DNA of 64,000 nt from an uncultured Gammaproteobacteria bacterium (lineage in GTDB: Bacteria > Patescibacteriota > Patescibacteriia > Magasanikbacterales > GWA2-37-8), in contig CAYOXC010000003.1 in the NCBI GenBank assembly GCA_964407865.1, positions 12,760 through 76,759 on the forward strand, read 5' to 3'. This document shows, piece by piece, positions 4,196 through 63,105 of this stretch. Made by a program: the position numbers and the translations under genes. Position 1 is the first letter of the stretch. Every line of letters starts with the position of its first letter. A model generated the notes under the pieces. That model worked only from the letters and a program-made list of their open reading frames with translations, did not search any database and was not told where the DNA came from.

Positions 4196-4201
4196 ATAAT
4201 T

Positions 4202-14969: not shown

Positions 14970-15212
14970 TTAGAAAAAAAGGCGACTAAAGGAAAAGCCA
15001 AAAAATAAACAGGCAATAACGATTGTTGCGTAAAAAAGTATTTTGTCTACACCTCGTTTGGTGCTGTAAACATTTGAGGATCCGCCGAAAACACCGCCTA
15101 ACCCAGCGCCTTTTTGCTGAAGTAGAATTACAATAACGAGAAGCAGTGAAAGTATAATCTGTATTATATCGTAGAATTTGTTCATATCCGGCATATCAAC
15201 TTCCAGAGACAA
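14970..15212 (-). CDS. secG: Preprotein translocase subunit SecG (likely true start ATG at 15194 or 15185)
   Basis: Two TM helices flank LLQQKGAGLGGVFGGSS, the SecG signature. The TTG chosen by the ORF caller lies inside a conserved upstream motif. Confidence 0.7.
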   Translation of the reverse strand: MSLEVDMPDMNKFYDIIQIILSLLLVIVILLQQKGAGLGGVFGGSSNVYSTKRGVDKILFYATIVIACLFFGFSFSRLFF

Positions 15213-15357
15213 ATAATTTTAAAGATTTGTCTTCGGAAATAGAGTAATTATTAATAAATTATTTTTAGTAAGTTTTATTATTTTGACAACCGCTGAGAAG
15301 GAATGATGGCTTACCCGACAGCAGACAAACTGGAAGTTGTATTGCCGGGCACATTTC
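15181..15357. repeat. Paired inverted ~30-nt arms (family copy 1) bracketing the secG promoter region; the downstream arm covers the secG RBS and start
   Basis: Plus strand gttcatatccggcatatcaacttccagagacaaa (15181..15213) and cagacaaactggaagttgtattgccgggcacatttc (15322..15357); 10/10 inverted core caacttccag/ctggaagttg. Confidence 0.7.
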
Positions 15358-24260: not shown

Positions 24261-24474
24261 ATTATATCCAGCAATACAACTTTCAGTGTGTTTTGTTATT
24301 AAAATAAACATTAGTTCTTAAAGTATTGCGTTATTAGGATAAATCTGATTTCAACAGGCAGACAAACACAAAAAAATAATTTAAATTAAAGAATAAAAAT
24401 AATTAAATCAAATTTTTAGAGTATAAACATGGTTATTATGTTTGTCTCTGAAAGCTGATATGCTGGATATGAAT
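24261..24474. repeat. Paired inverted arms (family copy 3) upstream of the nucleotidyltransferase gene
   Basis: attatatccagcaatacaactttcagtgtgttttg (24261..24295) and tttgtctctgaaagctgatatgctggatatgaat (24441..24474). Both arms share the locus-specific TTTCAG/CTGAAAG variant. Confidence 0.7.
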
Positions 24475-28344: not shown

Positions 28345-28557
28345 TTATTTAATTACAAATATTTCAAAGCCGTAATTGAAAAAGTAGTCCAGCACCATGA
28401 AAAATAAGGCAAACCCGACGGATAAGCCAATGACCAAAACACTATAGTTAAAAGTCTGCTTTTTGGTCGGCCAGGAAACCTTTTTCATTTCAGCGTATGA
28501 TGTTTTGAAATAATTAATTATTTTGTTCATACCTAGCATATCAACTTCCAGAGACAA
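28345..28557 (-). CDS. secE: Preprotein translocase subunit SecE (likely true start ATG at 28539 or 28530)
   Basis: A single C-terminal TM helix preceded by EMKKVSWPTKKQT (the SecE KKV.WP motif). The gene sits directly upstream of nusG, the canonical arrangement. Confidence 0.75.
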   Translation of the reverse strand: MSLEVDMLGMNKIINYFKTSYAEMKKVSWPTKKQTFNYSVLVIGLSVGFALFFMVLDYFFNYGFEIFVIK

Positions 28558-28738
28558 ACACTTTATAGTGTTGTTGCTCTGAAAAATAATTTAAAGTATT
28601 TAATTTAAGTTAAAAATATAATTTACCGTGTTTGTCTGGTTTTAAAATTTTTATAATTTGTATTATATAATTTTTTTATTAACGCAGCTTTGTTTATGTC
28701 CAAAAACACACTGGAAGTTGTATTGCTGGGCATATTTC
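28521..28738. repeat. Paired inverted arms (family copy 2) bracketing the secE promoter region
   Basis: ttttgttcatacctagcatatcaacttccagagacaaaca (28521..28560) and caaaaacacactggaagttgtattgctgggcatatttc (28701..28738). Confidence 0.7.
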
Positions 28739-48772: not shown

Positions 48773-48774
48773 GT

Positions 48775-48945
48775 TTGAAGAAAGCGATAAAAATGTTGAG
48801 CAGGCGTCATGCTACGCGAATCACCCCCAAACGCCGTCCAACCGGCCTGGCACTGAAAAAGAGCCGTGAACCAAGCTATGGTGACTGCGGCGTATGCAAT
48901 GTTTGTTGCTTCGGCGGCGGGCATTGCCAGTGTCACTGTTCTTAG
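48775..48945 (+). CDS. Cys-rich 56-aa peptide, a candidate RiPP precursor (SCIFF/ranthipeptide-like), translationally coupled to the rSAM gene
   Basis: Manual translation gives MKKAIKMLSRRHATRITPKRRPTGLALKKSREPSYGDCGVCNVCCFGGGHCQCHCS. The TTG start is 5 nt after AGAGG and 2 nt after the rSAM stop. Eight Cys are clustered in the last 21 residues. It is below the 60-aa track cutoff. Confidence 0.5.
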   Translation: MKKAIKMLSRRHATRITPKRRPTGLALKKSREPSYGDCGVCNVCCFGGGHCQCHCS

Positions 48946-49698: not shown

Positions 49699-52431
49699 AT
49701 GCTGAATTCCCTCAAAGAAAAAGGGAGACTCATTTTGAATATTCTCAAACCGCGACGGCGGTTGAATTTAGCGTCAGCACTTCTTCTCGGAGCAGGCGCT
49801 ATTTTTGCGTTGTTTATATATGGCGCATCAGCACTGGCTGAAGGTGCTAGTTCTGGTTCCATCGCACAGTCAATTGTTCAGGCGATTTCTGAAGGTATTC
49901 TTTGGATTGCTTCCATATTCAATTCTATTACAATATTTATTGTTAATTTTGTTGTTGAAATTGCATCTTACAATAATTATATTAATTCCGGAGCGGTAAC
50001 TCTAGGCTGGGTTTTAGTCAGAGATGTGACCAATATGCTTTTTGTCATTATTTTAATGGTGATAGCTTTTGGTACTGTGCTAGGTCTGGAACAATATGAA
50101 TGGAAAAAGATGTTGGTAAAATTTGTTTTGGCGGCTATTTTAGTAAATTTCTCGCGCATTATTTGTGGCATCATTATAGACGCAGCTCAGGTTTTTATGA
50201 TGACATTTATTTCCGGCGTGGCTGCGATTGCCGGGGGCAATTTAATGCAAGCTTTGGGTATGCAACAGATTAATTCTTTTTCCGCACAGACCAATCCTGA
50301 AGCTATGACTTATGCAAATATTTTTGCCTCTTCCATCATGATAATGATTTTTTCTTTCGCCGCCATGGTGATCATCGGGGCATATCTGGTAGTACTGATG
50401 GGTCGTGTGGTGGCGCTTTGGATATTGATTATACTTTCACCTCTTGCTTTTGTTCTGGGTGTTATTCCAAAGTTTCAATCATACGCCAGTGAATGGTGGC
50501 AACAATTCACCAACAATGTTATTTCCGGGCCAGTATTGGCATTTTTCTTATGGTTGTCGTTTGCGGTGGCAGGAAGCGGCGGAGTACACAATGCTGAATT
50601 TGGCGGAAGCAATGTTGCTTATCCTTTAAGCAATACTCAAGCTGAAATGGATCAAGCCACCAGGGATAGTGGGGAGGGCAGTACTTTATTGCTTGAAATA
50701 TTACAAATGGAAAATTTAGCCAGTTTTATTATTGCCGCCGCTTTGCTTATGGCCGGAGTCAAAGTTACCCAGCGGTTGGCAGGTGTTGGCGCTGGCGTGC
50801 TTGGTGCTGCAGCTGGCGCGGCGACTAAATTTGCCACAGTGGCCGGCGGAGTAGCCGCGGCCAGGTGGGCTGTTGGAGCGGCCGCTACTGGAGCGAAGAA
50901 AGTTGGTAAAGGAGTTTTAATGAAAGCGCCTTTGGTTGGCGGTGAAGCTTGGATGAGGCGAGGCAGGGGGTTAAAAGCACAAGTAGGAATGCGATACCAG
51001 GATTTAGCCCAAAAGTATGAAGCCAAAACTGCTGCCGGGCTTAAAAAAGCAGAAGGTCAAAAAGGGGTGGGCGCGGCATTAAAGCGTGGTTTTTTTAGAA
51101 CCGCATTAACACCGGCGCAAAAAGAAAAAAGAACCGCCTTTCTTGAGGGAGCTGCAAAGGCGGCCAAAGATGAGCGTATGGAGAAGTTGGGTATGGGCGG
51201 AACCGATATAGGTAAATTAGCTGGTTCACGTTTGATGCGGGCGGAAATAGCCAAACAAGAAGCGGAACGCGACAAAAAAAGAGGTCTTGGTTTTGCCAAA
51301 GCTCAGGAGTATCGCCGTGTTGGAAAGCATGATTTGGCCGATATGGTAGATGCCGGGGTGTCAGCTGAAATATTTGAAGAGGATACGAAAAAATATGCGA
51401 ATTTAGATTTTGCCGGAAAAGTAAATTTAGCCCGTGAAATGGCATCAACAACACAGAAAATAAGAGATAATTTAATGTCTGCAGTTCAGTCCGGAGATGA
51501 AAAAATGATAGAGGCATCAAAGAGTGCCCTGAAAGAACAGACAATAAAAAATATGAATTTTCAGGCCATGGCATCCTCAGACAGAGAAACCAGAGAAGCT
51601 GTTGATGGTGTTTTCTTAAAAAATTCTGGCTATAGCGGAGATATTGGGACTGAAAATTCGGCGGCCATGGAAATGTCAAAAATGACCGGGTTAGACGCAG
51701 CTAATATTGATCATCAAAGCATATTAAAAGATTTACAGAATAATTTGGAAAAGGATTCAAATTTTCAAACTTCTGCAAAAAATTTAGCAAAAGCGGAATT
51801 TGGTTTGTATTCGCAAACTGGAGATATGCGTTACGCTAGCGCTTTTAGTCAAGGGGTTTCAAAAGATTCAGCAACCGGAAGAATGAAAGTAGTTTATGGC
51901 ATGGGCGCAAATGTTGGCACGCACGATTTAGAAGGCAACGAACGCACTGAAGCGCGTGATATGTTTACCACTGATAAAGGAAAAATAGAATATTTATCCA
52001 CAACAGCTCGTCCGAATTTCCAGCAAAATGTAAATGCGGAGATTATTATGAAGCAAAAAGATCGGGCGACAGGAGAGGTAAGACAATTAGACGGCAAGCA
52101 GATGGAAGCTATGAGCGGATATTTAAGCACTGTTTCGCCACAAATGATGCGTCGTGCTTTTTCACCAAAGTTTGTGACAGATATAAATAAATTAGCTAGC
52201 GAGGGGAAAATGAGCTCCGAACAAGCATCAGAGTTTTTAAATACGATTACTTCCAAGATGACAAACGACCAACAAAAAGCTGAATTGCGCCGAGTGCTTA
52301 AAGATTTAGACAAATTAGCCGGAGGTAGTACTACCGGAGGTGGTGCGGTCGGCCGCGGCGGTGGAACAGAAGAAGATGAAATTGAGGCAGCGGACGCGGA
52401 TGAAGGGTTTCCTGGTGGGAGAAGAACTTAA
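49699..52431 (+). CDS. Large polytopic membrane protein, VirB6/TrbL-like N-terminal domain with a long Ala/Gly/Lys-rich helical C-terminal region
   Basis: 910 aa; at least 6 TM in the first 300 aa with Trp-containing loops (WWQQF); C-terminal low-complexity region. Confidence 0.4.
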   Translation: MLNSLKEKGRLILNILKPRRRLNLASALLLGAGAIFALFIYGASALAEGASSGSIAQSIVQAISEGILWIASIFNSITIFIVNFVVEIASYNNYINSGAVTLGWVLVRDVTNMLFVIILMVIAFGTVLGLEQYEWKKMLVKFVLAAILVNFSRIICGIIIDAAQVFMMTFISGVAAIAGGNLMQALGMQQINSFSAQTNPEAMTYANIFASSIMIMIFSFAAMVIIGAYLVVLMGRVVALWILIILSPLAFVLGVIPKFQSYASEWWQQFTNNVISGPVLAFFLWLSFAVAGSGGVHNAEFGGSNVAYPLSNTQAEMDQATRDSGEGSTLLLEILQMENLASFIIAAALLMAGVKVTQRLAGVGAGVLGAAAGAATKFATVAGGVAAARWAVGAAATGAKKVGKGVLMKAPLVGGEAWMRRGRGLKAQVGMRYQDLAQKYEAKTAAGLKKAEGQKGVGAALKRGFFRTALTPAQKEKRTAFLEGAAKAAKDERMEKLGMGGTDIGKLAGSRLMRAEIAKQEAERDKKRGLGFAKAQEYRRVGKHDLADMVDAGVSAEIFEEDTKKYANLDFAGKVNLAREMASTTQKIRDNLMSAVQSGDEKMIEASKSALKEQTIKNMNFQAMASSDRETREAVDGVFLKNSGYSGDIGTENSAAMEMSKMTGLDAANIDHQSILKDLQNNLEKDSNFQTSAKNLAKAEFGLYSQTGDMRYASAFSQGVSKDSATGRMKVVYGMGANVGTHDLEGNERTEARDMFTTDKGKIEYLSTTARPNFQQNVNAEIIMKQKDRATGEVRQLDGKQMEAMSGYLSTVSPQMMRRAFSPKFVTDINKLASEGKMSSEQASEFLNTITSKMTNDQQKAELRRVLKDLDKLAGGSTTGGGAVGRGGGTEEDEIEAADADEGFPGGRRT

Positions 52432-52442
52432 TATTAAAAAAT

Positions 52443-53510
52443 ATGCGTTCATATAACCCAGAAAATACAAGTAAAATACCGCCACAAGATTTGGTAAAAT
52501 CATTTTTTGAAGAAGATGTTTTTGCGGCTGATGCTTTTTTGCATTTTAAAAAAGAATTATTTGATTATTTTGCATCTAACCCAGATGCAAAAAAAGCGTT
52601 TAGAACACATTGGATTTTGAATGTTCATGCAACCTGGACATTTTTAAACCAGCTAGACTCCGATGATTTTCTAAATTATGGCATTGAACAGATTCCAGAG
52701 GCGGTTCGTCAAGGGTTTGATGTTGCGGAAAAATTGGTTTGGTATATGGCTATCAATTTTCGCAATCCTAAATTGATGACATTGTTTTATTCACAGTTAC
52801 GATCCAAATTTTACGGCTCAGAAGCACTCGTCGGATTAACCGGCGAAGAATTAAAAATATCTGATTTAGTACAGCAAGTTCGCCTGCTAAATAGTTACGC
52901 CGGCGATACCATTCGCGCCGCTGAATTATACGATAAGTTGCAGCATACAATTTTTAGCGGGTCTGAAAAAGACGCTAGCAATGACTATGTAATGGTTGAT
53001 AATAAGGAAGCGGTAATAAATTTAGTAAATTTGACGAATTTCTTTTTGCAAGTTGAACCTGAGGTTATTTGGGAATCGGTTAATACCTATACCTTTTCTC
53101 AAGAGACGGGAATGCCGGCGGAGCAAGTTGTTGCCCCAGTTATACAGCCGATTTTAGATCCAGAAGACGCGCCAGAATTAACAGATAAAGAAAAAGAAAA
53201 ATTGGCTTCAGAAATGCAAGTTGAAAAAAATTCAAAAGAAGAACCTAAAACAGAAAAAACTATGGATCCAGCCAAATCAAACACGAAGCAAATTCCAGTA
53301 GAGGAAACAGCGAGTGATATTAAGCCAACCTACGCTGAAATACGCGCCAAAGTTGATTCAGTTTTTCCCAAAGACAAAAGCGGAGTTTATAAGGATTTGG
53401 ACGGGGTACTCATGGCACTTGAGAAAGCGGCGGACAAATACAATGACCCAAAAATTGCAGAGTTGTATTATTTTGATGAGGCATCAGGCGCCTTTACGTG
53501 GAATGTTTAA
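52443..53510 (+). CDS. Hypothetical protein
   Basis: 355-aa ORF; acidic C-terminal half; no motif. Confidence 0.4.
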   Translation: MRSYNPENTSKIPPQDLVKSFFEEDVFAADAFLHFKKELFDYFASNPDAKKAFRTHWILNVHATWTFLNQLDSDDFLNYGIEQIPEAVRQGFDVAEKLVWYMAINFRNPKLMTLFYSQLRSKFYGSEALVGLTGEELKISDLVQQVRLLNSYAGDTIRAAELYDKLQHTIFSGSEKDASNDYVMVDNKEAVINLVNLTNFFLQVEPEVIWESVNTYTFSQETGMPAEQVVAPVIQPILDPEDAPELTDKEKEKLASEMQVEKNSKEEPKTEKTMDPAKSNTKQIPVEETASDIKPTYAEIRAKVDSVFPKDKSGVYKDLDGVLMALEKAADKYNDPKIAELYYFDEASGAFTWNV

Positions 53511-53656
53511 AAATTTTTAATTTTATAATTTTGTAATTTTAAAGGGCAAAGCCCATTTTATCTGCGCTCCGCTCGGAAAAACAAATAAGCTTGTTTTTCT
53601 CTCGCTACGCTTGATAATAAATAAATCATAATTTTTATAACAGTCAAAAAGATTTT

Positions 53657-53998
53657 ATGAATTATGATTTGGAGGAAAGATCGGCGAGATTTGGTGAAGA
53701 AGTAATAAGGTTCGTTAAAACACTGCCTGATAGCAATATAAATAGACCGCTTGTCAATCAAATTATTCGTTCTGCTACTAGTATTGGTGCGAATTATATG
53801 GAAGCTAATCAGGCGAGCTCAAAAAAGGATTTCAGGAACAAAATTAAAATCTGTCAAAAAGAGTCAAATGAAACGAAACACTGGATAAGGATGGTCGCGG
53901 TTGCAAATCCTGGTGCAAGTGATAAATGTCGCATATTATGGAAAGAAGCGCATGAACTAACTTTAATTTTTGCGAAAATATCCAGAAATTGTCAGTAA
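53657..53998 (+). CDS. Four-helix-bundle protein (23S rRNA intervening-sequence protein family)
   Basis: 113 aa; SIGANYMEANQASSKKDFRNKIKICQKESNETKHW matches the four-helix bundle family (TIGR02436-like) pattern. Confidence 0.65.
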   Translation: MNYDLEERSARFGEEVIRFVKTLPDSNINRPLVNQIIRSATSIGANYMEANQASSKKDFRNKIKICQKESNETKHWIRMVAVANPGASDKCRILWKEAHELTLIFAKISRNCQ

Positions 53999-54024
53999 GT
54001 TAAAAATTGAGAGATTAAAAATTA

Positions 54025-54058
54025 TTTACAAAATTAAAAATTTAAAAATTAAAAATTA
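54025..54058 (+). promoter_or_regulatory. Conserved AT-rich promoter-like motif (copy 3)
   Basis: aaattatttacaaaattaaaaatttaaaaattaaaaatt directly upstream of the ATG at 54064. Confidence 0.45.
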
Positions 54059-54063
54059 TACAA

Positions 54064-55284
54064 ATGCCTACGCCTTTAATTCCAATCAAACATCCGGACG
54101 GAACCATCGAGAAAGTGACACTCGATGAGTTTAAGGCACGGCAAAAAAAGGCGACTGTGCCAAAATCCGCAGTACCTGCTCCGGTAAAACCGTCAGAACC
54201 GGCAATAAAAAAACCAGAACTAACAAAAATTACACCAAAACCTATTGAAAAAAAGATTGAAAAGTCAACACCGACCCCGCCGCCAGCCAAACCAGATCCG
54301 GTAAAAGAAAAAAAACCGATAACATCAATGCCGCAAGCGGCAAAAACCGAAGAAGGCAAATCGCTTCTTGAAGAAGAGTTGCCCCTAGCGAAACAGTCAA
54401 CCCCCATGGCGAGCGCCGATCGCAGAGAAGAAGCAGAGACAATAGTGAAAAAATTAAACTTACAGATAAGCGAAGAGGCTAAAAAACGGTTGATTGGCCT
54501 GGTACAATTGCGCCTAAAAGATGTTCGCGGCGAAACGGAAGTTAAAGAGTGGCTGACAAAGGCAGAAAATGAAATGGGTATTGGTTTGAGCGAAGAAAAA
54601 GCAGAATCAGTTCTTAGCGCAGTCCGTGAAATATTGAAGCAGCCAAGAAAGGATGATATGCCGATTATCCCCTTAAAACGACCTTTGGGCACTCCGAGCA
54701 ACATTCCGGCCACACCGACAAGTACTGTTTTTGGCGCAACCAAGGCACTGGCAAAAGAGGAACGAGAGCCTCTGCCAGCCGTAAATACCCCAGTCAATTC
54801 ATTTATTCACCCTGAACGCGTTTCAATCAATTCGTCTTCTAACAAAATGCCTAAATCATTAGATGAATTAGTAAAAAAAGAATCAGCTGCATTTGAACCA
54901 AGTATCGAGTCTCTTATGCCCAACAAGGGACAGCCAGCGCGCACTATAGTTCGTGATATTTCAACAGCTAAACCGACCCATCTTGGCCCGGTGGAGGAAT
55001 TGCGCTATATTACACTGACTGATTTTAGGCGGCTTTCAACCAACCCGGAAGAAGCTGCAGCGAGATTAAGACAAAAGTTTTTTAACTTAAAAGATGAATC
55101 TTATATTTTGTATATGAATGGCTTGACTGCGTGGAGGCAGAGTCCGCTTTTTACCGATTATACCAATGCGGCCATATCGGCTTTGAACTCAAAAATTAAA
55201 ATGACGGATGAAAGTATGGATAAGGAAAAAATTCAGATTCCGGAAATTCAGGCGCTGGTCGTAATGCAAAAACAGTTGGTTTAA
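54064..55284 (+). CDS. Hypothetical protein, Pro/Lys-rich N-terminal region
   Basis: 406-aa ORF. Confidence 0.4.
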   Translation: MPTPLIPIKHPDGTIEKVTLDEFKARQKKATVPKSAVPAPVKPSEPAIKKPELTKITPKPIEKKIEKSTPTPPPAKPDPVKEKKPITSMPQAAKTEEGKSLLEEELPLAKQSTPMASADRREEAETIVKKLNLQISEEAKKRLIGLVQLRLKDVRGETEVKEWLTKAENEMGIGLSEEKAESVLSAVREILKQPRKDDMPIIPLKRPLGTPSNIPATPTSTVFGATKALAKEEREPLPAVNTPVNSFIHPERVSINSSSNKMPKSLDELVKKESAAFEPSIESLMPNKGQPARTIVRDISTAKPTHLGPVEELRYITLTDFRRLSTNPEEAAARLRQKFFNLKDESYILYMNGLTAWRQSPLFTDYTNAAISALNSKIKMTDESMDKEKIQIPEIQALVVMQKQLV

Positions 55285-55415
55285 TTTTATGAAAATAAAA
55301 TTTGTAAATTTGGACGATAGAAGTAAAAATTTTGTAAACAATTTTTAAAATATTAAAAATTAAGATTTGTTTAAAAATTAAGAATTAAAAATTCAAAAAT
55401 TGGAGTGAAATAATT

Positions 55416-55853
55416 ATGCCCGTTCAGACGCAATTCGTTGTACCACAATTTATTGATGTTGAAGATAAAATATTTGGCCCAATTACGGCTCGCCAGTTTG
55501 TCATACTTTTGGTTGCCGGCCTGCTTTTATTCCTTGCCTATAAATTGGCAGATTTTGGACTTTTTGTTTTTCTTTTAGTTACCCTTGGCGGCGGGTCGCT
55601 GATTGTTGCCTTTGTAAAAATTAACGGTCAGCCATTTCATTATTTTCTATTAAATATTGCTCAAACTTTGCGTCGTCCACCTCTCAGAATTTGGAACAAA
55701 GTCTATTCAAAAGACGAACTTAAACGGCTGCAGGAAGAGGGAAGAGTGGTCGTTCCAGAACCGCCTAAAAAAATAAAAAGGGCGTCTTATAGTCGAATCC
55801 GTGATTTATCATTAACCGTCAATACCGGAGGCTATTATGAAGCCGAGGAGTGA
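55416..55853 (+). CDS. Small two-TM membrane protein, VirB3/PrgI-like (T4SS)
   Basis: 145 aa; two hydrophobic helices; it sits upstream of the VirB4 genes, as PrgI/VirB3 does in T4SS loci. Confidence 0.35.
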   Translation: MPVQTQFVVPQFIDVEDKIFGPITARQFVILLVAGLLLFLAYKLADFGLFVFLLVTLGGGSLIVAFVKINGQPFHYFLLNIAQTLRRPPLRIWNKVYSKDELKRLQEEGRVVVPEPPKKIKRASYSRIRDLSLTVNTGGYYEAEE

Positions 55854-56157
55854 TATACCCAGTAATACAGCTTCCAGTGTGTCCTTCTACATTTATGTGT
55901 TAGAGAGCAAAAAAGACGGAAAAAGATACATTGGTTATACGAATAATTTAAGAAAAAGAATCGAAGAACACAATAAAGGGTTAACTATTTCAACGAGCTA
56001 CAGATTGCCGGTTAAATTAATTTATTTTGAAGGTTGTTTAAATATGCAAGATGCCAAACGCAGAGAGCGTTATTTAAAAACAAACGTAGGTAGAAAATTT
56101 TTAGGCCTAAGATTAATTGAGTACAAACGCTGTGCGGCGTTTGGCTCTGGAAGCTGA
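55837..56157 (+). CDS. GIY-YIG nuclease-family small protein
   Basis: FYIYVLESKKDGKRYIGYT has GIY and YIG about 11 residues apart. LRKRIEEHN carries the conserved Arg/Glu. A strong GGAGG RBS lies 5 nt upstream of the ATG at 55837. Confidence 0.75.
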   Translation: MKPRSDIPSNTASSVSFYIYVLESKKDGKRYIGYTNNLRKRIEEHNKGLTISTSYRLPVKLIYFEGCLNMQDAKRRERYLKTNVGRKFLGLRLIEYKRCAAFGSGS

Positions 56158-56176
56158 TATACTGGGTATGAAAAAT
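55852..56176. repeat. Paired inverted arms (family copy 4), this time flanking the GIY-YIG gene; the downstream arm covers the RBS and start of the VirB4 N-domain gene
   Basis: gatatacccagtaatacagcttccagtgtgtcc (55852..55884) and ggctctggaagctgatatactgggtatgaaaaat (56143..56176). The arms share the locus-specific variants CAGCTTCCAG/CTGGAAGCTG and CCCAGTA/TACTGGG. Confidence 0.7.
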
Positions 56177-56854
56177 AAAAAAGCGACTAATAAAAGAGCG
56201 GCAATTCCAACAACACAGAAAAATGTTGCCATTGCTGAAATAAAAAACGATACTATTATCATGAAAGACGGTACTTTGCGTTCCGTACTTATGGTATCAA
56301 GCATAAACTTTGCTTTGAAAAATGATGATGAGCAGCAGGCTGTCATAAGCTCTTATGTCTCTTTTTTAAACGGCCTGGAAGCTCCGCTGCAGATTGTCAT
56401 TCAGTCGCGCCAGTTGAACATTAAACCATATTTGGAAAAGCTTATCGTTAAAGAGCGGGAACAGCCAAATGAACTGCTACGAATGCAGATTGCCGATTAC
56501 CGATCATTTGTCGCCGAATTGGTAAGTTTGGGAAAAATTATGAGCAAGAATTTTTATGCCGTTGTTCCGTATGATCCATTAACTAATAAAAAGCGAAGTT
56601 TTTGGTCAAGATTGAGTGATGTAATCAATCCGGCTATTACCGTGCGTCTTAAAGATGAGCGTTTCTTGAAACGCAAGCATGATCTGGATATGCGCGTTCG
56701 TCAGATTGAAGCCGGCTTAACTTCCATGGGTCTTGAGGTAGTGCGTTTAGATACTCAGTCATTGATTGAACTTTTTTATTCAACTTACAATCCGGATATA
56801 GCGCTTTTACAGCCGCTTGCGTCAATTGAAGAATTTAATTTAGAAGCAGTTTAA
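56117..56854 (+). CDS. VirB4/TrbE-like N-terminal domain encoded as a separate ORF (likely true start ATG at 56168)
   Basis: IIMKDGTLRSVLMVSSINFAL...SYVSFLNGLEAPLQIVIQS resembles the N-terminal CagE_TrbE_VirB domain. The ORF ends at TAA, followed 3 nt later, in the same frame, by the ATG of the ATPase ORF. Confidence 0.5.
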   Translation: MSTNAVRRLALEADILGMKNKKATNKRAAIPTTQKNVAIAEIKNDTIIMKDGTLRSVLMVSSINFALKNDDEQQAVISSYVSFLNGLEAPLQIVIQSRQLNIKPYLEKLIVKEREQPNELLRMQIADYRSFVAELVSLGKIMSKNFYAVVPYDPLTNKKRSFWSRLSDVINPAITVRLKDERFLKRKHDLDMRVRQIEAGLTSMGLEVVRLDTQSLIELFYSTYNPDIALLQPLASIEEFNLEAV

Positions 56855-56857
56855 TTT

Positions 56858-58726
56858 ATGGCTTTTAAACCGACAATAACTAAAGAAGACAAGAAAGCGC
56901 CGACTCGTTTGGATAAAGAAACCAGCGAAATAAAAAAGAAGACATCGGAAGAGATGGCTTCCCTTGAAGAAGAGCGTGTATATCGTGAAGGTGTAGTTTC
57001 AATTCGCGATTTGGTAGCACCCGCTTCGTTTCGGGTTGAATCAAGTTTTATTCAGCTCGGCGATATTTATTGCCGCACTCTTTTTATCACCGCCTATCCA
57101 CGCTACATTTCTATTGGTTGGGCTTCTCCGGTTATCAATTTGTCTATTACCATGGATGTAGGGATGTATTTTTATCCCGTAAAATCAGCCGTAATTTTAA
57201 AACAATTAAAAAATAAAGTCGGCGCTCTGGAAGCGCAGATAAATGCGGATTCGGAAAAGGGTGCGCCGCGCGACCCAATCAGAGAAACAGCGCTGCGAGA
57301 CATTGAACAGCTTCGCGACAATCTGACTCAGGGAACAGAGCATTTTTTCCAGTTTTGTTTCTATGTTACGATTTATGCTCGCAATAAAGACGAGCTGGAA
57401 CAGACGACGGAAGATATTGAAAATATTTTTGGCGGCAAGCTAATTATTACGCGCAAGGTTTTGTTTCAAGCCGAGCAGGGTTTTAATTCTACACTGCCTT
57501 TGAGCAATGACGAACTATATGTTGCTTTCAACATGAACAGCTCTCCGATTGCCGCTTCTTTCCCTTTTATTTCTGCTGAACTTACTTCTGACGACGGTAT
57601 ACTTTACGGTATCAATCGACACAACAACAGTTTGATTTTGTTCAATAGATTTTCTTTGCAAAATGCCAATATGGTGGTTTTTGCCACTTCTGGAGCAGGC
57701 AAAAGTTATACTATAAAGCTGGAGATATTACGAACCATGATGATGGGCGTTGATGTAATTGTTATTGACCCTGAAATGGAATATAAGCATTTAAGTGACG
57801 CGGTTGGCGGTACTTATGTAAATATTTCACTTTCTTCTGAGGCAAAAATAAATCCTTTTGATTTGCCGCGCCCGATGGGTATGGAAATTTCTACTGAAGA
57901 TGTTATTCGGAGTGCAGTTATCACTATGAAAGGTTTGCTTCGCATCATGCTTGGTGGTCTTTCGGTGGAGCAGGACGCTATTATTGACCGTGCCTTAATT
58001 GAGGCTTATGCCAAAAAAGATATTACTCCTGACTGCGATTTAAATACGGTCAAACCTCCAATTATGCAGGATTTGGTTGAAGTGCTTGAAGGCATGCAGG
58101 GCTCGGGAGAGCTGGTTTTAAAACTTCAAAAATATACCGAAGGAACTTTTTCCGGACTTTTCAATTCTCCGACAAATGTGGATATGAAAAACCAGCTGGT
58201 TATATTTTCTGTTCGTGATTTGGAAGAAGAACTCCGGCCAATCGCTATATATTCTATTATTAATTACATTTGGAATGTTGTTCGCTCCGAGCGTAAGCGA
58301 AGAATCATGGTAATTGACGAGGCCTGGTGGCTGATGATGCATGAAGATTCTGCTCGCTTTATTTTTGCTTTGGTAAAGAGGTGTCGTAAATATTATCTCG
58401 GCGTCACCACAATCACTCAGGATGTCAATGACTTTCTTCGTTCTCAATATGGGCAGGCGATTGTAACTAACTCCGCTTTGCAGCTGCTTTTGCGTCAGTC
58501 GCCAGCGTCAATTGATTTAATCCAGAAAGTTTTTGTTTTAACCGATAGTGAAAAATATTTGCTTTTAGAGTCATCTGTTGGTGAGGGTATATTTTTTGCC
58601 GGCCTGAAACACGCTGCTATCAAGGTAGTCGCTTCATATACCGAAGATCAAATTGTCACCACTAATCCCGAACAGCTTTTGGCTATTGAACAGGCAAAAA
58701 AGGAGTTTAAAGCTGCTGAAAAATAA
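56858..58726 (+). CDS. VirB4/TraC-family T4SS ATPase (ATPase domain)
   Basis: 622 aa; Walker A FATSGAGKSYT; Walker B RIMVIDEAWWLM (the DEAW of VirB4). Confidence 0.8.
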   Translation: MAFKPTITKEDKKAPTRLDKETSEIKKKTSEEMASLEEERVYREGVVSIRDLVAPASFRVESSFIQLGDIYCRTLFITAYPRYISIGWASPVINLSITMDVGMYFYPVKSAVILKQLKNKVGALEAQINADSEKGAPRDPIRETALRDIEQLRDNLTQGTEHFFQFCFYVTIYARNKDELEQTTEDIENIFGGKLIITRKVLFQAEQGFNSTLPLSNDELYVAFNMNSSPIAASFPFISAELTSDDGILYGINRHNNSLILFNRFSLQNANMVVFATSGAGKSYTIKLEILRTMMMGVDVIVIDPEMEYKHLSDAVGGTYVNISLSSEAKINPFDLPRPMGMEISTEDVIRSAVITMKGLLRIMLGGLSVEQDAIIDRALIEAYAKKDITPDCDLNTVKPPIMQDLVEVLEGMQGSGELVLKLQKYTEGTFSGLFNSPTNVDMKNQLVIFSVRDLEEELRPIAIYSIINYIWNVVRSERKRRIMVIDEAWWLMMHEDSARFIFALVKRCRKYYLGVTTITQDVNDFLRSQYGQAIVTNSALQLLLRQSPASIDLIQKVFVLTDSEKYLLLESSVGEGIFFAGLKHAAIKVVASYTEDQIVTTNPEQLLAIEQAKKEFKAAEK

Positions 58727-58747
58727 TTTACCTTTATATTCAAAATT

Positions 58748-59347
58748 ATGATGACACTCCGTTCTCGAATCTTTATTATCGCAAGCATTGTAGTGCTTGT
58801 GATTTTGGCCATAAGCATTTCATTATATATTTTTGGTAAAAAAGAAGGACCAGCAAGCGATGAAACTGCTGAACCAACAGCAACAGGTCAAGTCGATGAA
58901 GATAATATCCCAGAAGCGATTACCGCTCCGCCTCCGACAGTAATTCCGGCCAGTCCTACCGTAAAGCCGCTTTCAAGCGAAGACGTTTTAAAAAATGCCG
59001 CCAAACAGCTTGCCAAGATATTTATTGAGCGGTATGGCACCTATTCGTCGGAAAATAATGGAGAGAATATCAAAGAATGTGAATCGCTTGTGACAGAGGA
59101 TCTTTACGCTGAAATCAGCAAGCGAATCGGTGTTCAGCCGCCAAACGGCGAATTTACCGGCGCGACGACAAAAGCTATCGCCGTGGATTTAGCCGAATAT
59201 AGCGATACTGCGGCTAAAGCAGAACTTGGAGTAAATAGAATAATAACTAAAGGCGATAGTATTGAAGAAAAGCCGTCTAGGGTAAATGTATGGCTAACAA
59301 GATCAGGTGATGGTTGGCTGGTAAGTAAGTTCGAGTGGTTGCAGTAA
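58748..59347 (+). CDS. Hypothetical membrane-anchored secreted protein
   Basis: 199 aa; N-terminal TM; no motif. Confidence 0.4.
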   Translation: MMTLRSRIFIIASIVVLVILAISISLYIFGKKEGPASDETAEPTATGQVDEDNIPEAITAPPPTVIPASPTVKPLSSEDVLKNAAKQLAKIFIERYGTYSSENNGENIKECESLVTEDLYAEISKRIGVQPPNGEFTGATTKAIAVDLAEYSDTAAKAELGVNRIITKGDSIEEKPSRVNVWLTRSGDGWLVSKFEWLQ

Positions 59348-59414
59348 GTTAAAAATATTACAAGATAAAAAACAAAAAACACCATTATTAATAGTGGTGT
59401 TTTTAAATAAATAA

Positions 59415-60143
59415 ATGTTTAATAAAATTTTACAATCAATTAAAGATTTGTTATTTCCTGTTTTTTGTGTTAAATGCGGTTTGGAGGGAGATTGGTTGTG
59501 TGAGAAATGTTTTTTAAAGGTTCAGCTTAAACCTGTTTTGCGTTGTCCTGCTTGTCGTAAAAAAAACGACGGATCGCTTTGTCTTGGCTGTCAGGGGTTT
59601 TTTTCATTGGACGGCGTATGTGCCGTGTTTGAATACAAGGAAGATGAACCGCTCGGACAATTGGTAAGGGATTTTAAATATCATTACGCGCGCGATATTA
59701 TATTTGTTTGGAAAAAAATATTCGAACAATTTTTTGATTCAGATTGTCCAGATTTTTTAAATGGTGAAAATCAATGGACGGTAGTCTCGGTGCCGCTATA
59801 TCCAAGGCGGGAACGTGAAAGAGGGTATAATCAAGCAGCGCTTTTAGCTCAAATTATTTGCCAAAAAATAAATTCATTAAAACCAGAAAAAGTACTTGTG
59901 ATGAATAATATTTTAAAACGCGTTCGTCCGACATCGCAACAGGCCAAATTAACCAAAGAAGAAAGAGTAAAAAATGTTGAGAATGCGTTTGTCGTGATAT
60001 CTGAAAATATTCCTAAAAATGTTATTTTAGTTGATGATGTTTTTACATCAGGCGTCACACTTTTTGAGTGTGCCCGTTTATTAAAGCAGAGTGGTGTAAA
60101 GCGCGTTTGGGCGATTACACTTTCAAGGAGCTTGTTTGATTAG
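59415..60143 (+). CDS. comFC: ComF-family protein (ComFC-like phosphoribosyltransferase-domain competence protein)
   Basis: N-terminal Cys4 zinc ribbon (CVKCGL...CEKC...CPAC...CLGC) and C-terminal PRTase motif VILVDDVFTSGVTL. Confidence 0.75.
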   Translation: MFNKILQSIKDLLFPVFCVKCGLEGDWLCEKCFLKVQLKPVLRCPACRKKNDGSLCLGCQGFFSLDGVCAVFEYKEDEPLGQLVRDFKYHYARDIIFVWKKIFEQFFDSDCPDFLNGENQWTVVSVPLYPRRERERGYNQAALLAQIICQKINSLKPEKVLVMNNILKRVRPTSQQAKLTKEERVKNVENAFVVISENIPKNVILVDDVFTSGVTLFECARLLKQSGVKRVWAITLSRSLFD

Positions 60144-60335: not shown

Positions 60336-60989
<654 letters not shown>

Positions 60990-63064: not shown

Positions 63065-63105
63065 GTTTTTTCTAATTACAAAGCACAAATTACAAATTAC
63101 TATTT

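What the first reader, a model, noticed from the sequence alone, without database searches (positions are those of the whole stretch)
49699..60143. T4SS-like / competence-associated cluster with VirB4 split by an in-frame TAA and interrupted by a GIY-YIG gene
The cluster holds a VirB6/TrbL-like polytopic protein (49699), a VirB3/PrgI-like two-TM protein (55416) and VirB4. VirB4 is encoded as an N-domain ORF (to 56854) and a Walker A/DEAW ATPase ORF (from 56858) in the same frame, separated only by TAA-TTT. ComFC follows at 59415. A VirB2/TrbC-like pilin with Cys-rich repeats lies distantly at 16264. A small GIY-YIG nuclease gene sits immediately upstream of, and overlaps, the VirB4 N-domain start. 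Either the split is real (a two-polypeptide VirB4) or it is a recent nonsense mutation or pseudogenisation.
Basis: partly seen in the sequence, partly recalled or inferred. Interest (0 to 1): 0.6.

Follow-up and report, generated by a model that had tools for sequence, protein, structure and literature searches.

The report
Known T4SS; start-codon GIY-YIG transposon
The "split VirB4" is the normal, conserved two-gene form (TrsD plus VirB4) of the secretion system already described in Patescibacteria, but the small GIY-YIG gene beside it is a tiny mobile element, apparently undescribed, that sits exactly on gene start codons.

Summary
The sequence features are real. [quoted passage not shown] Its order is VirB6-like, two unknowns, PrgI/VirB3, TrsD-like, VirB4, VirB8-like, ComFC.

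The "VirB4 N-domain ORF" is a stand-alone TrsD/TraD-family protein of 228 aa that starts at ATG 56168.
- Thousands of homologues are 225-231 aa long, and none of the best 150 distant cluster representatives is fused to an ATPase.
- In ten relatives the two genes are separated by 3 to about 100 nt, in different frames, after TAA or TGA. The in-frame TAA-TTT-ATG here is therefore coincidence, not a nonsense mutation or readthrough.
- pSK41 has the same trsC-trsD-trsE order.

This part is already known.

The GIY-YIG gene does not interrupt VirB4. It is a roughly 312-nt cassette with 20-23-nt complementary ends, inserted between prgI and trsD, and it is absent from 11 relatives.
- About 50 independent copies in metagenomes have the same ends with compensatory changes.
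- Each copy sits exactly at the start codon of a different housekeeping gene and regenerates the ATG.
- The window holds three more ORF-less copies, at secE, secG and a nucleotidyltransferase gene.
- Two nested copies show a 4-bp target duplication.

I found no published description of this element.

The parts
49699..52431 (+). VirB6/TrbL-like polytopic membrane protein (910 aa) with a long hydrophilic C-terminal extension
   Evidence: About 8 predicted TM segments in residues 1-350. No direct Pfam or NCBIfam hit. Homologues of the N-terminal 400 aa include proteins carrying PF04610 TrbL or PF19590. 2 of 15 family members hit Pfam TrbL, best E 7.3e-7. hhalign against the pSK41 TrbL-family protein gives E 7.9e-4, probability 25%, over the conserved R..LWILIILSPLAF..WW stretch. 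It is the first gene of the cluster in relatives where that region was fetched (L001-L006, L010; also L007, L012).
52443..53510 (+). Conserved hypothetical protein (355 aa), no TM, function unknown
   Evidence: Syntenic in L001-L006, L010 and L012 at 26-43% identity. No Pfam, NCBIfam or PDB sequence match.
53511..54063 (+). Second window-specific insertion: a cassette that encodes a 23S rRNA-intervening-sequence protein (ORF 53657-53998)
   Evidence: Pfam 23S_rRNA_IVP E 3.9e-17. Flanked by 25-nt arms that are 92% complementary, 53512-53536 and 54026-54050. No match to it was found in any related locus, and the two flanking genes abut or overlap in most of them.
54064..55284 (+). Conserved hypothetical protein (406 aa), Pro-rich N-terminal half, function unknown
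   Evidence: Syntenic in all relatives at 30-48% identity. No family or PDB match.
55416..55853 (+). PrgI / VirB3-like two-TM protein
   Evidence: Pfam PrgI E 4.4e-10, above cutoff. Two predicted TM helices. 62-81% identical in relatives, and always directly upstream of the TrsD-like gene.
55854..56167 (+). GIY-YIG cassette. The element proper is 55858-56166. Complementary ends are at 55855-55877 and 56147-56169. The ORF runs 55837-56157. The flanking repeat is TATA (degenerate) / TATG.
   Evidence: GIY-YIG domain E 1.7e-15. A 23-nt inverted repeat, 87% complementary, is the only one in the region. Relatives have 2-24 nt here, or up to 97 nt of unrelated sequence. The same ends occur in about 50 independent metagenome copies. 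Pairing is supported by covariation. The terminal stem is in the MFE fold, z = -4.85.
56168..56854 (+). TrsD/TraD-family protein (228 aa), the stand-alone N-terminal module of VirB4
   Evidence: 4551 homologues. The best 120 are nearly all 225-231 aa (range 215-245) and carry PF26593 TraC-like. 2034 representative clusters were found, and the best 150 are all 452 aa or shorter. NCBIfam: TrsD E 1.1e-7, VirB4_plasma positions 90-229, CD1110 positions 2-96. hhalign against pSK41 TrsD: E 7.7e-5, 173 columns. The AlphaFold model (pLDDT 68.5) hits only TrwK/VirB4 chains at probability 1.00.
56852..56860 (+). Junction TAA-TTT-ATG between the two genes
   Evidence: Read directly. In relatives the spacer is 3, 3, 4, 4, 5, 8, 10, 20, about 40 and about 100 nt, after TAA or TGA, so the frame relation is not conserved.
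56858..58726 (+). VirB4 ATPase (622 aa; TrsE-like, lacking the TrsD module)
   Evidence: conju_CD1110 E 2.9e-105, model positions 173-728 of 752. P-loop_TraG, DUF87, AAA_10 and CagE_TrbE_VirB. PDB 4AG5 E 9.4e-49. BLASTP against pSK41 TrsE E 6e-46, colinear. 79-90% identical in relatives, length 622-633 aa.
58748..59347 (+). VirB8-like protein: N-terminal TM helix, disordered linker, NTF2-like domain
   Evidence: One predicted TM. AlphaFold model pLDDT 83.5, domain above 90. Top Foldseek hits are CagV, TcpC, PrgL VirB8 domain, Rickettsia VirB8, pIP501 TraH, pKM101 TraE, DotI and TrwG, E from 2e-5, probability 1.00. Syntenic wherever the region downstream of virB4 was fetched (9 loci).
59415..60143 (+). 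ComFC-like phosphoribosyltransferase-fold protein
   Evidence: TIGR00201 comF E 1.9e-29, GntX E 1.1e-23. It directly follows the VirB8-like gene in 8 related loci, and lies 3 kb further downstream in L003. It is not present in the distant lineage L053.
16264..18048 (+). Distant pilin-like protein (594 aa) with a T4SS-pilin-type two-TM segment at residues about 100-165
   Evidence: PF18895 T4SS_pilin E 1.5e-5, 25.4 bits against a cutoff of 26.6. NCBIfam Mbov_0395 pilin-like E 7.5e-5, below cutoff. A DsbA-like gene lies directly upstream.
24264..24468 (+). ORF-less copy of the same element, ending at the ATG (24469) of a nucleotidyltransferase gene
   Evidence: Arms TCCAGCAATACAACTTTCAG / CTGAAAGCTGATATGCTGGA. 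Downstream ORF: NTP_transferase, profile position 2 at residue 3. Terminal stem in the MFE fold, z = -3.2.
28531..28733 (-). ORF-less copy ending at the ATG (28530, minus strand) of secE
   Evidence: Arms CCCAGCAATACAACTTCCAG / CTGGAAGTTGATATGCTAGG, flanked by TATG on both sides. SecE profile position 1 at residue 5. Terminal stem in the MFE fold, z = -3.2.
15186..15354 (-). ORF-less copy ending at the ATG (15185, minus strand) of secG
   Evidence: Arms CCCGGCAATACAACTTCCAG / CTGGAAGTTGATATGCCGGA. SecG profile position 4 at residue 7.

Best explanation
(1) The locus is the chromosomal, relaxase-less, MPF-FATA-like type IV secretion system typical of Patescibacteria. Its parts are a VirB6-like channel protein, two lineage-specific unknowns, PrgI/VirB3, a two-gene VirB4 (TrsD-like N-module plus ATPase) and a VirB8-like protein, followed by ComFC.

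(2) The 'split' is the ancestral state of this lineage. TrsD and VirB4 are separate, closely spaced genes, as in the trsC-trsD-trsE genes of pSK41/pGO1. I infer that the two proteins assemble into the equivalent of a full-length VirB4 anchored by PrgI/VirB3. The in-frame TAA is a coincidence of a 3-nt spacer.

(3) The GIY-YIG gene is the coding member of a family of very small mobile elements of about 310 nt. The element proper runs CCC(A/C)GTAATACAAC...GTTGATATAC(T/G)GGG. It has 20-23-nt complementary ends, a 4-bp target duplication and ORF-less derivatives of about 70-220 nt.

In this genome the element landed on the TATG at the trsD start. The upstream ATG copy, here decayed to ATA, and the host's translation signals serve the nuclease ORF. 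The downstream ATG copy restores the trsD start. The nuclease stop codon lies inside the 3' arm, 10 nt before that ATG. I infer that trsD is translated by termination-reinitiation coupling and/or after the terminal stem forms, which would make the insertion nearly harmless.

Shown here: the anatomy, the conservation, the copy family, the covariation, the start-codon placement and the 4-bp duplication. Inferred: that the GIY-YIG protein moves the element, how start codons are found, and how the host gene stays expressed.
For: T4SS and TrsD:
- Domain and fold assignments.
- Conserved synteny in 12 Magasanikbacteria/Patescibacteria loci.
- 4551 stand-alone homologues of about 228 aa, and no fusion among the best 150 of 2034 representative clusters.
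- Variable spacer, frame and stop codon between the two genes.
- The two ORFs tile full-length VirB4 models without overlap: CD1110 2-96 and 173-728; TIGR00929 19-180 and 239-725; VirB4_plasma 90-229 and 282-889.
- pSK41 has TrsD (227 aa) directly before TrsE (672 aa). hhalign to TrsD gives E 7.7e-5, and BLASTP to TrsE gives E 6e-46.
- PMC12102498 reports TrsD as the commonest T4SS component in Patescibacteria: 2272 homologues, 1664 of them next to virB4.

Cassette:
- Absent at this site in 11 relatives.
- 49 distinct cassettes align end to end.
- In the terminal stem 98.6% of cells are paired, and 8 of 17 pairs show compensatory double changes. 0 of 500 shuffles reach this, and slid controls give 17-46% paired.
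- ORF diversity by codon position is 0.24/0.13/0.50, against 0.08 in the arms. 45 of 49 ORFs are intact.
- In 51 distinct contexts, 47 are flanked by NATG and the 3' ATG opens a long ORF. Only 16% of random ATGs open an ORF of 100 or more codons.
- Ten downstream ORFs are full-length LeuRS, MurG, DnaB, RadA, ChlI/ComM, phosphoglucomutase, PBP1, a T4CP-like protein, PilM and an inositol-phosphatase-like protein, mostly matched from near their first residues.
- The window holds three ORF-less copies, at the secE, secG and NTP-transferase starts.
- Nested copies restore an intact 3' arm (L045, TTGA) and an intact GIY ORF (L073, CAAG) when the copy and one repeat are removed.
Against: T4SS:
- The VirB6 assignment is indirect (hhalign probability 25%).
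- The TrsD match is far below NCBIfam's curated cutoff (32 against 200 bits).
- The TrsD model is only moderately confident (pLDDT 68.5).
- No physical TrsD-VirB4 interaction was tested, and the function of the system is unknown.

Cassette:
- No known prokaryotic transposase is a lone 92-106-aa GIY-YIG domain, so the enzyme-element link rests only on association. My search started from the protein, so it could only find copies that encode the nuclease.
- Targets that are not start codons (TTGA, CAAG, TAGGA) show that the insertion chemistry does not itself require ATG. Start-codon placement could therefore be mostly a survival filter.
- One-sided changes in the stem are 8 wobble against 12 mismatches, which does not separate RNA pairing from DNA or protein recognition.
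- A minority of junctions do not fit a clean 4-bp duplication.
- No expression data were available.
Confidence: 0.8

Rival explanations
1. VirB4 was recently broken by a nonsense mutation (TAA), or the stop is an assembly or sequencing error. On this reading the N-terminal ORF is a pseudogene fragment.
For: The two ORFs are in the same frame, separated only by TAA-TTT. Together they tile a full-length VirB4 model.
Against: The 228-aa protein exists as a stand-alone gene in thousands of genomes at 69-89% identity, and down to 34% identity among representatives, never fused. The second gene has its own conserved start, MAFKP. Relatives have spacers of 3 to about 100 nt in all frames. Two independent assemblies are identical at the junction.
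Confidence: 0.01
2. The in-frame TAA is read through or recoded, so that one fused VirB4 polypeptide is made.
For: In-frame arrangement in the window, and also in L006 and L007 (3-nt spacers).
Against: In L001, L002, L003, L004 and L005 the spacer is 4, 4, 5, 8 and 10 nt, so the genes are out of frame. L010, L008 and L009 have longer spacers, and in L010 the spacer contains further stop triplets. L003 and L008 use TGA rather than TAA. About one third of random spacers would be in frame.
Confidence: 0.02
3. The GIY-YIG gene is a classical free-standing homing endonuclease that homes specifically to the prgI-trsD junction of T4SS operons. Alternatively it is a resident operon member that serves the secretion system.
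For: A 74%-identical GIY-YIG cassette sits at exactly the same place (prgI - GIY - trsD - virB4) in a distant Patescibacteria lineage, whose TrsD is only 35% identical and whose VirB4 is only 45% identical (L053/54/55/57/62). Other copies lie next to ComFC/pilM (L058) and at a T4CP-like gene (L072).
Against: The gene is absent from 11 close relatives. The same cassette is found at about 50 unrelated genes with no shared flanking sequence. The window's cassette is closest to L014, which sits at leuS, not to L053. The protein lacks the DNA-binding domain of I-TevI-type enzymes, since it is only 92-106 aa. With about 50 contexts and roughly 800-1000 genes per genome, one coincidence of site has a chance of about 5%.
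Confidence: 0.07
4. The complementary ends are mainly an RNA feature, an IVS-like stem cut by RNase III as in 23S rRNA intervening sequences. On this reading the GIY-YIG ORF is cargo of an element moved by some other, unidentified enzyme, and the nuclease is not the transposase.
For: In CPR rRNA genes, GIY-YIG and 23S_rRNA_IVP ORFs occur in non-intron insertions that seem 'outside the context of homing' (PMC11270868). The same operon also carries an IVP cassette with 25-nt complementary flanks. The stem is a continuous 7+10-bp helix with a 3-nt internal loop. It is predicted in the MFE fold of all three copies that were folded, with z from -3.2 to -4.9. G-U pairs are tolerated in 8 cells.
Against: ORF-less copies keep just the ends and about 30 nt of subterminal sequence shared with the coding copy, which is the usual relation of non-autonomous to autonomous elements. 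The ORF is under strong purifying selection in 45 of 49 copies. No other candidate enzyme was seen next to the copies. RNA processing and DNA mobility are not mutually exclusive.
Confidence: 0.25

Closest known systems
Patescibacteria-clade T4SS (MPF-FATA-like), Quinonero-Coronel et al. 2025, PMC12102498
   Same: Chromosomal virB4 with TrsD, PrgI/VirB3 and VirB6 next to it. No relaxase, T4CP or VirB9/10 in the cluster. VirB8-like proteins were detected mainly in class ABY1. A VirB2-like pilin is encoded elsewhere in the genome.
   Different: Nothing essential. This locus adds a confident structure-based VirB8 assignment for the 199-aa gene. It also shows ComFC adjacency conserved within Magasanikbacteria; ComFC is not mentioned in that paper.
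trsC-trsD-trsE of Staphylococcus plasmids pSK41/pGO1 (and TraD/TraE of pIP501)
   Same: Same gene order: a VirB3-like gene, then a roughly 227-aa TrsD, then the VirB4 ATPase, as separate adjacent genes. TrsD is 227 aa against 228 aa here. TrsE is colinear with the 622-aa ORF.
   Different: Sequence identity is low (about 25% for both). The plasmid systems are conjugative, with a relaxase and T4CP. The window's system has neither nearby. The window uses a PrgI-type rather than a TrsC-type VirB3.
Full-length VirB4 of Firmicutes/Mollicutes ICEs (NCBIfam CD1110 and Mbov_0397 families) and R388 TrwK
   Same: The TrsD-like protein plus the 622-aa protein cover the whole model in order. The TrsD model superposes on TrwK chains.
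   Different: In those proteins the N-module is fused. Here, and in pGO1-type systems, it is a separate polypeptide.
IS/MITE-type DNA transposons with terminal inverted repeats and target-site duplication
   Same: Terminal inverted repeats of 20-23 nt. A 4-bp flanking duplication shown by two reconstructable empty sites. Several copies per genome. Coding and ORF-less members that share only their ends. Nested and tandem insertions.
   Different: The only ORF is a 92-106-aa GIY-YIG nuclease domain, not a DDE, serine, tyrosine or HUH transposase. The whole coding element is only about 310 nt. About 90% of distinct copies sit exactly on a start codon, in the orientation of the gene, and the ORF runs through both arms.
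Free-standing GIY-YIG homing endonuclease genes (phage T4 Seg proteins, I-TevI relatives, fungal mitochondrial GIY-YIG ORFs fused to host genes)
   Same: GIY-YIG catalytic domain. A small selfish gene placed so that host genes remain functional.
   Different: No DNA-binding domain. No intron or intein. No conserved target gene or flanking homology. It has terminal inverted repeats and non-coding derivatives, which homing endonuclease genes lack.
Non-intron insertions encoding GIY-YIG or 23S_rRNA_IVP proteins in CPR rRNA genes (PMC11270868) and RNase III-excised 23S rRNA intervening sequences
   Same: Same two protein families, same phylum, insertions not related to group I/II introns. IVS elements are also closed by a long stem.
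   Different: Those sit in rRNA genes. The copies here sit at start codons of protein-coding genes. Whether the rRNA insertions carry the same ends was not reported and could not be tested here.

Membership tests
Patescibacteria / MPF-FATA-type T4SS | VirB4-family ATPase with Walker motifs | tested here: met
   conju_CD1110 353 bits, above the cutoff of 325. 4AG5 E 9.4e-49.
Patescibacteria / MPF-FATA-type T4SS | VirB3/PrgI-type small two-TM protein next to virB4 | tested here: met
   Pfam PrgI 40.4 bits, above the cutoff of 27. Two predicted TM helices. Conserved position.
Patescibacteria / MPF-FATA-type T4SS | VirB6/TrbL-type polytopic protein | tested here: inconclusive
   No direct profile hit. 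About 8 predicted TM segments. Transitive link through homologues with PF04610/PF19590. hhalign probability 25%.
Patescibacteria / MPF-FATA-type T4SS | VirB8-like bitopic protein with an NTF2-like domain | tested here: met
   Model pLDDT 83.5. Top structural matches are VirB8 homologues (CagV, TcpC, PrgL, TraH, TraE, DotI, TrwG), probability 1.00.
Patescibacteria / MPF-FATA-type T4SS | No relaxase or coupling protein in the cluster (the feature that separates the Patescibacteria clade from conjugative systems) | tested here: met
   None among the cluster genes, nor among the other window ORFs that were scanned. Not every ORF of the 64-kb window was scanned.
TrsD/TraD family (NF041427; Pfam PF26593 TraC-like) | Sequence match to the family model | tested here: inconclusive
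   NF041427 E 1.1e-7, but 31.9 bits against a curated cutoff of 200. PF26593 is precomputed for the identical protein and for all listed homologues. hhalign against pSK41 TrsD: E 7.7e-5, probability 62%.
TrsD/TraD family (NF041427; Pfam PF26593 TraC-like) | Stand-alone protein of about 200-230 aa, encoded directly upstream of virB4 and after the VirB3-like gene | tested here: met
   228 aa. Same order in 12 related loci and in pSK41.
TrsD/TraD family (NF041427; Pfam PF26593 TraC-like) | Homology to the N-terminal part of VirB4 | tested here: met
   Matches N-terminal positions of three full-length VirB4 models. Foldseek hits only TrwK/VirB4 at probability 1.00, TM-score 0.41-0.49 normalised to the query.
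Pseudogene / recent nonsense mutation | Intact single ORF in close relatives; the stop unique to this genome | tested here: not met
   All relatives have two genes.
ComF (ComFC) family | Match to the ComF model with an N-terminal zinc ribbon and a C-terminal PRTase fold | tested here: inconclusive
   TIGR00201 E 1.9e-29, but 103 bits against a cutoff of 233.6. Pribosyltran and double zinc ribbon hits.
GIY-YIG homing endonuclease (I-TevI / Seg type) | GIY-YIG catalytic domain | tested here: met
   PF01541 57.5 bits. YIGYT, EEH and DAKRRE codons are invariant in 49 copies.
GIY-YIG homing endonuclease (I-TevI / Seg type) | Separate DNA-binding domain and a defined homing site in a cognate gene | tested here: not met
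   The protein is only 92-106 aa. About 50 different target genes, with no shared flanks beyond NATG.
TIR transposon with non-autonomous (MITE-like) derivatives | Terminal inverted repeats conserved across copies | tested here: met
TIR transposon with non-autonomous (MITE-like) derivatives | Target-site duplication of fixed length, shown by empty sites | tested here: met
   Two nested copies reconstruct intact host sequence with 4-bp repeats, TTGA and CAAG. TATG/TATG in 38 of 51 contexts and CATG/CATG in one; about 12 junctions do not fit cleanly. The empty prgI-trsD site is seen in 11 relatives.
TIR transposon with non-autonomous (MITE-like) derivatives | Several copies per genome, both coding and ORF-less | tested here: met
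   Four copies in this 64-kb window, one coding and three ORF-less. Short copies of 68-218 nt in other loci.
TIR transposon with non-autonomous (MITE-like) derivatives | Encoded protein is the transposase (a known transposase family, or activity shown) | not testable with these tools
   GIY-YIG is not a known stand-alone prokaryotic transposase. This needs biochemistry or a mobility assay.

The most novel reading that the evidence does not exclude
The roughly 310-nt cassette is the autonomous member of an undescribed class of prokaryotic transposon. On this reading its only protein, a 92-106-aa GIY-YIG nuclease, is the transposase. It actively seeks start codons (TATG), takes over the host gene's translation start for itself, and hands ribosomes on to the host gene through a stop codon placed 10 nt before the regenerated ATG. 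In this way it would colonise essential genes of minimal genomes without killing them.
Probability: 0.3. Interest if true: 0.85.

Novelty: new variant of a known kind. Interest (0 to 1): 0.55.

Why it matters
The T4SS part matters little beyond annotation. The split VirB4 should be named TrsD + VirB4, and the 199-aa gene can be named VirB8-like, a component reported as hard to find in this phylum.

The cassette matters more.
- It shows how a selfish element can spread in genomes with almost no spare DNA, by sitting exactly on start codons of essential genes (leuS, dnaB, murG, secE, secG, trsD) while regenerating the start.
- If the 92-aa GIY-YIG domain is the mobilising enzyme, it would be among the smallest autonomous DNA transposons and a new transposase class in prokaryotes.
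- It would also provide a natural model for translational coupling and stem-mediated start-site selection.
- Practically, these cassettes cause wrong gene starts. They also add spurious 'GIY-YIG nuclease' genes inside operons of CPR genomes.

Tried and rejected
- A PDB sequence search with the TrsD profile found nothing, even at E 10. Only the fold search showed the VirB4 relation.
- A PDB sequence search with the VirB6-like N-terminus found nothing. The two hypotheticals gave nothing useful. Pfam and NCBIfam also gave nothing for them.
- Rfam, at gathering threshold and at E up to 5, has no family over any copy of the element.
- An exact scan of viral contigs for the 3' arm plus ATG found nothing.
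- Six literature searches combined GIY-YIG with CPR/Patescibacteria, start codon, inverted repeats, MITEs and transposon, or used COG2827/YhbQ/UPF0213. None found a description of the cassette.
- My first target-site tabulation was contaminated, because the near-palindromic arms were also detected on the reverse strand. I redid it with an orientation filter.
- I considered that the T before the 3' ATG belongs to the element rather than to a duplication. The nested copies favour a 4-bp duplication, but about 12 of 51 junctions do not fit cleanly.
- I tested whether G-U pairs could separate RNA-level from DNA-level constraint on the stem. With 8 wobble against 12 mismatched cells, they cannot.
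- I considered that the same-site insertion in L053 means site-specific homing. I rejected this as the main explanation, because the window's cassette is closer to the one at leuS in L014.

Full report
**Observation.** ORFs at 49699, 52443, 54064, 55416, 55837, 56117/56168, 56858, 58748 and 59415 all lie on the + strand. The junction reads GAA GCA GTT TAA TTT ATG GCT, so the two VirB4-related ORFs are in the same frame, separated by a stop and one codon. The exact GIY-YIG protein was looked up in public assemblies. It returned contigs from three sequencing runs with the same gene order. Those of SRR14492172 and SRR14492170 are identical to the window over 3321 and 1604 nt, including the TAA. 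The features are therefore real.

**What the cluster is.**
- Pfam and NCBIfam identify PrgI/VirB3 at 55416, a VirB4 ATPase at 56858, a ComF-family protein at 59415, a GIY-YIG nuclease at 55837 and a 23S-rRNA-IVS protein at 53657.
- For the VirB4 ATPase, conju_CD1110 gives E 2.9e-105, and the best solved relative is the Thermoanaerobacter VirB4 C-terminal domain 4AG5 at E 9.4e-49.
- The 910-aa protein at 49699 has about eight predicted TM segments in its first 350 residues. It has no direct family hit. Some of its homologues carry TrbL/VirB6 domains, and a profile of the family aligns weakly to the TrbL-family protein of pSK41.
- The 199-aa protein at 58748 has one predicted TM helix. Its model is confident (pLDDT 83.5), and the NTF2-like domain matches VirB8 homologues first: CagV, TcpC, PrgL, TraH, TraE, DotI and TrwG.
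- The two proteins at 52443 and 54064 remain unassigned.
- Twelve related loci from Magasanikbacteria and other Patescibacteria MAGs keep the order VirB6-like, h355, h406, PrgI, 228-aa protein, VirB4, VirB8-like, ComFC wherever the fetched stretch covers it.
- This is the relaxase-less, MPF-FATA-like T4SS described for Patescibacteria in 2025 (PMC12102498).

**The 'split VirB4'.** The upstream ORF really starts at ATG 56168 (MKNKKA...), as in all relatives.
- It has 4551 homologues. The best 120, down to 69% identity, are almost all 225-231 aa and carry PF26593 (TraC-like).
- An exhaustive search of 1.8 billion cluster representatives found 2034 related clusters. The best 150, down to 34% identity, are all 452 aa or shorter, so none is fused to an ATPase.
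- In ten related loci the spacer to the ATPase gene is 3, 3, 4, 4, 5, 8, 10, 20, about 40 and about 100 nt. The stop is TAA or TGA, and the second gene always begins MAFKP. The frame relation in the window is therefore chance. Nonsense mutation, pseudogenisation and readthrough are excluded.
- NCBIfam places the 228-aa protein on the N-terminal positions of full-length VirB4 models and the 622-aa protein on the rest, without overlap. It also matches the TrsD/TraD family, weakly.
- The AlphaFold model of the 228-aa protein (pLDDT 68.5) matches only TrwK/VirB4 chains of the R388 machine.
- pSK41 has the same layout: a VirB3-like gene, trsD (227 aa), then trsE (672 aa). The window's proteins align to both.
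- The 2025 paper reports TrsD as the most abundant T4SS component of Patescibacteria, usually next to virB4, and listed as essential in Southlakia epibionticum.
The in-frame TAA is not a feature.

**The GIY-YIG gene.**
- In relatives, prgI ends ...NTGGYY(Q/E)AE(D/E)* and the 228-aa gene starts 2-24 nt later. Three loci have 82-97 nt of unrelated repeats instead. The window has 314 nt there.
- The only inverted repeat in the region is 55855-55877 against 56147-56169 (23 nt, 87% complementary), exactly at the ends of the extra DNA.
- A metagenome scan with the nuclease sequence returned 79 loci. In about 70 of them the gene is bounded by the same ends: [ATG]CCCAGTAATACAACTTCCAG ... CTGGAAGTTGATATACTGGGT[ATG].
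- The distance between the ends is 309-315 nt in most copies.
- 49 distinct cassettes align over their whole length.
- The 17 proposed pairs between the ends are formed in 98.6% of cells. Eight pairs show compensatory double changes (for example A-U to C-G in ten sequences). No shuffle out of 500 reaches this, and slid controls give 17-46% pairing.
- Nucleotide diversity in the ORF is 0.24, 0.13 and 0.50 at codon positions 1, 2 and 3, against 0.08 in the arms. 45 of 49 ORFs are intact. Both the protein and the ends are therefore under selection.

**Placement of the cassette.**
- In 51 distinct, non-tandem contexts the four bases before the element are NATG in 47 cases. The same ATG reappears after it.
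- That second ATG opens a long ORF in nearly every context with enough sequence, whereas only 16% of random ATGs in the same loci open 100 codons or more.
- Ten of these ORFs were scanned. They are LeuRS, MurG, DnaB, RadA, a ChlI/ComM-type ATPase, phosphoglucomutase, a class A PBP, a T4CP-like ATPase, PilM and an inositol-phosphatase-like protein. Most were matched from the first few residues of the family profiles.
- The element therefore sits exactly on native start codons, in the orientation of the gene.
- The nuclease ORF begins at the upstream ATG and ends at a TGA inside the 3' arm, 10 nt before the downstream ATG.
- In the window the upstream copy has decayed to ATA, and the ORF reaches back to an in-frame ATG at 55837 inside the end of prgI.

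**A family with non-coding members.**
- Searching the window for the arms found three more copies without an ORF (163-201 nt between the arm ends). Each ends in ...GATATGC(T/C)(G/A)G(A/G)TATG at the start codon of a gene: a nucleotidyltransferase (24469), secE (28530, minus strand) and secG (15185, minus strand).
- They share with the coding copy only the arms and about 30 nt next to each arm.
- The terminal stem is part of the minimum-energy fold in all three copies folded, with z from -3.2 to -4.9.
- Other loci contain 68-218-nt copies, tandem arrays that share one ATG, and nested copies.
- Two nested copies give clean empty sites. Removing the copy and one repeat restores an intact 3' arm in L045 (repeat TTGA) and an intact nuclease reading frame in L073 (repeat CAAG). 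This shows insertion with a 4-bp duplication.
- TATG/TATG in 38 contexts and CATG/CATG in one fit the same rule. About a dozen junctions do not fit cleanly.

**How it probably works.**
- Shown: a small element with complementary ends, a 4-bp duplication, and coding and non-coding members, found almost only on start codons.
- Inferred: because the duplication includes the ATG, the element's ORF inherits the host gene's ribosome-binding context, and the host gene keeps an ATG.
- Inferred: the stop 10 nt upstream allows reinitiation. The stem, whose base includes both ATGs, may also bring the host's upstream signals next to the second ATG, or may be an RNase III site.
- Open: whether start codons are actively targeted or merely the only survivable sites in these compact genomes. 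The non-ATG duplications in nested copies show that the chemistry does not need ATG.
- Open: whether the GIY-YIG protein is the mobilising enzyme. That idea rests on association, on purifying selection and on the autonomous/non-autonomous pattern.

**Same site in a distant lineage.** Loci L053, L054, L055, L057 and L062 are one population seen in several samples. They carry a 74%-identical cassette at the same prgI-trsD junction, although their TrsD and VirB4 are only 35% and 45% identical to the window's. The window's cassette is closer to the one at leuS in L014, so these are independent insertions. With about 50 contexts, one such coincidence has a chance of roughly 5%, so I do not claim a preference.

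**What is known.** The T4SS and the TrsD/VirB4 arrangement are published. For the cassette, six full-text searches found no description. Rfam has no family over any copy. The nearest report is that GIY-YIG and 23S_rRNA_IVP ORFs occur in non-intron insertions of CPR rRNA genes and seem not to spread by homing (PMC11270868). Fittingly, the same operon in the window also carries an IVP cassette with 25-nt complementary flanks, for which no match was found in any related locus.

**Verdict.**
- The secretion system and its split ATPase are ordinary and already described.
- The GIY-YIG cassette is a well-supported, apparently undescribed variant of a TIR transposon with an unusual enzyme and an unusual niche.
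- The overall interest of 0.55 is driven by the cassette.

Noticed in passing
window 53511-54063: A 553-nt insertion between the 355-aa and 406-aa genes carries a 23S-rRNA-intervening-sequence protein gene (53657-53998). It is bounded by AT-rich 25-nt arms that are 92% complementary. No match to it was found in any related locus, and the flanking genes abut or overlap in most of them.
   Followed up: partly
window 62672-63097: A second 23S_rRNA_IVP gene (62705-63064, E 7.6e-28) lies just upstream of a tRNA gene (63106-63197). It is also flanked by 24-nt arms that are 83% complementary (62672-62695 / 63074-63097).
   Followed up: no
window 47735-48945: A radical-SAM enzyme with a Cys-rich C-terminal (SPASM-like) end is followed, with a 4-nt overlap, by a 58-aa ORF that ends in CGVCNVCCFGGGHCQCHCS. 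This looks like a RiPP maturase with its precursor peptide.
   Followed up: no
window 46638-47198 (-) and 60336-60989 (+): Two proteins with long Asp/Ser/Thr-Asp repeats (DSDTDGDTD...) flank the T4SS cluster on either side. The first has a lipoprotein-like signal peptide. A homologue follows ComFC in L006.
   Followed up: no
window 38158-46512: A giant 2784-aa ORF just upstream of the cluster. Its only domain hit is a carbohydrate-binding module (CBM_4_9).
   Followed up: no
This suggests disulfide formation in an extracellular protein.
   Followed up: no
L086 3313-3588 and L087 2236-2511: More distant GIY-YIG genes (40-47% identity) lie between a truncated 5' copy of a tRNA gene and the full tRNA gene. 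In the truncated copy the middle is replaced by a GC hairpin, and the tRNA's TAAGGAG serves as a Shine-Dalgarno for the nuclease gene. This is a different, tRNA-gene-associated layout.
   Followed up: no
L083 around 4001-4231; L076 50-325; L080 664-960: Subfamilies of the GIY-YIG cassette have different but again mutually complementary ends. Examples are GATACGTGAAAT / ATTTCACGTATC in L083, and a perfect 20-bp pair CCCAGTAACTCAACTTTGAA / TTCAAAGTTGAGTTACTGGG in L080.
   Followed up: partly
L018 3821-4289 and L019 56-657: Tandem arrays of two or three elements, coding and ORF-less, share single ATGs between neighbours. This is as expected if each element's own ATG is again a target.
   Followed up: partly
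L008 2875-2971 and 3659-3760; L009 5724-5805: In two related loci the prgI-trsD spacer, and in L008 also the trsD-virB4 spacer, hold short direct and inverted repeats (such as gactttacagactttaaggactttacagactttaagg). These are unrelated to the GIY-YIG element and may be another small repeat family.
   Followed up: no
L072 3980-6143 and L058 119-2498: Other copies of the cassette sit at the start codon of a T4CP-like ATPase (TrwB_AAD_bind) and of pilM. The pilM copy has a ComFC-like gene on the opposite strand just upstream. Together with trsD this makes three DNA-transfer or pilus genes among about 50 contexts.
   Followed up: no
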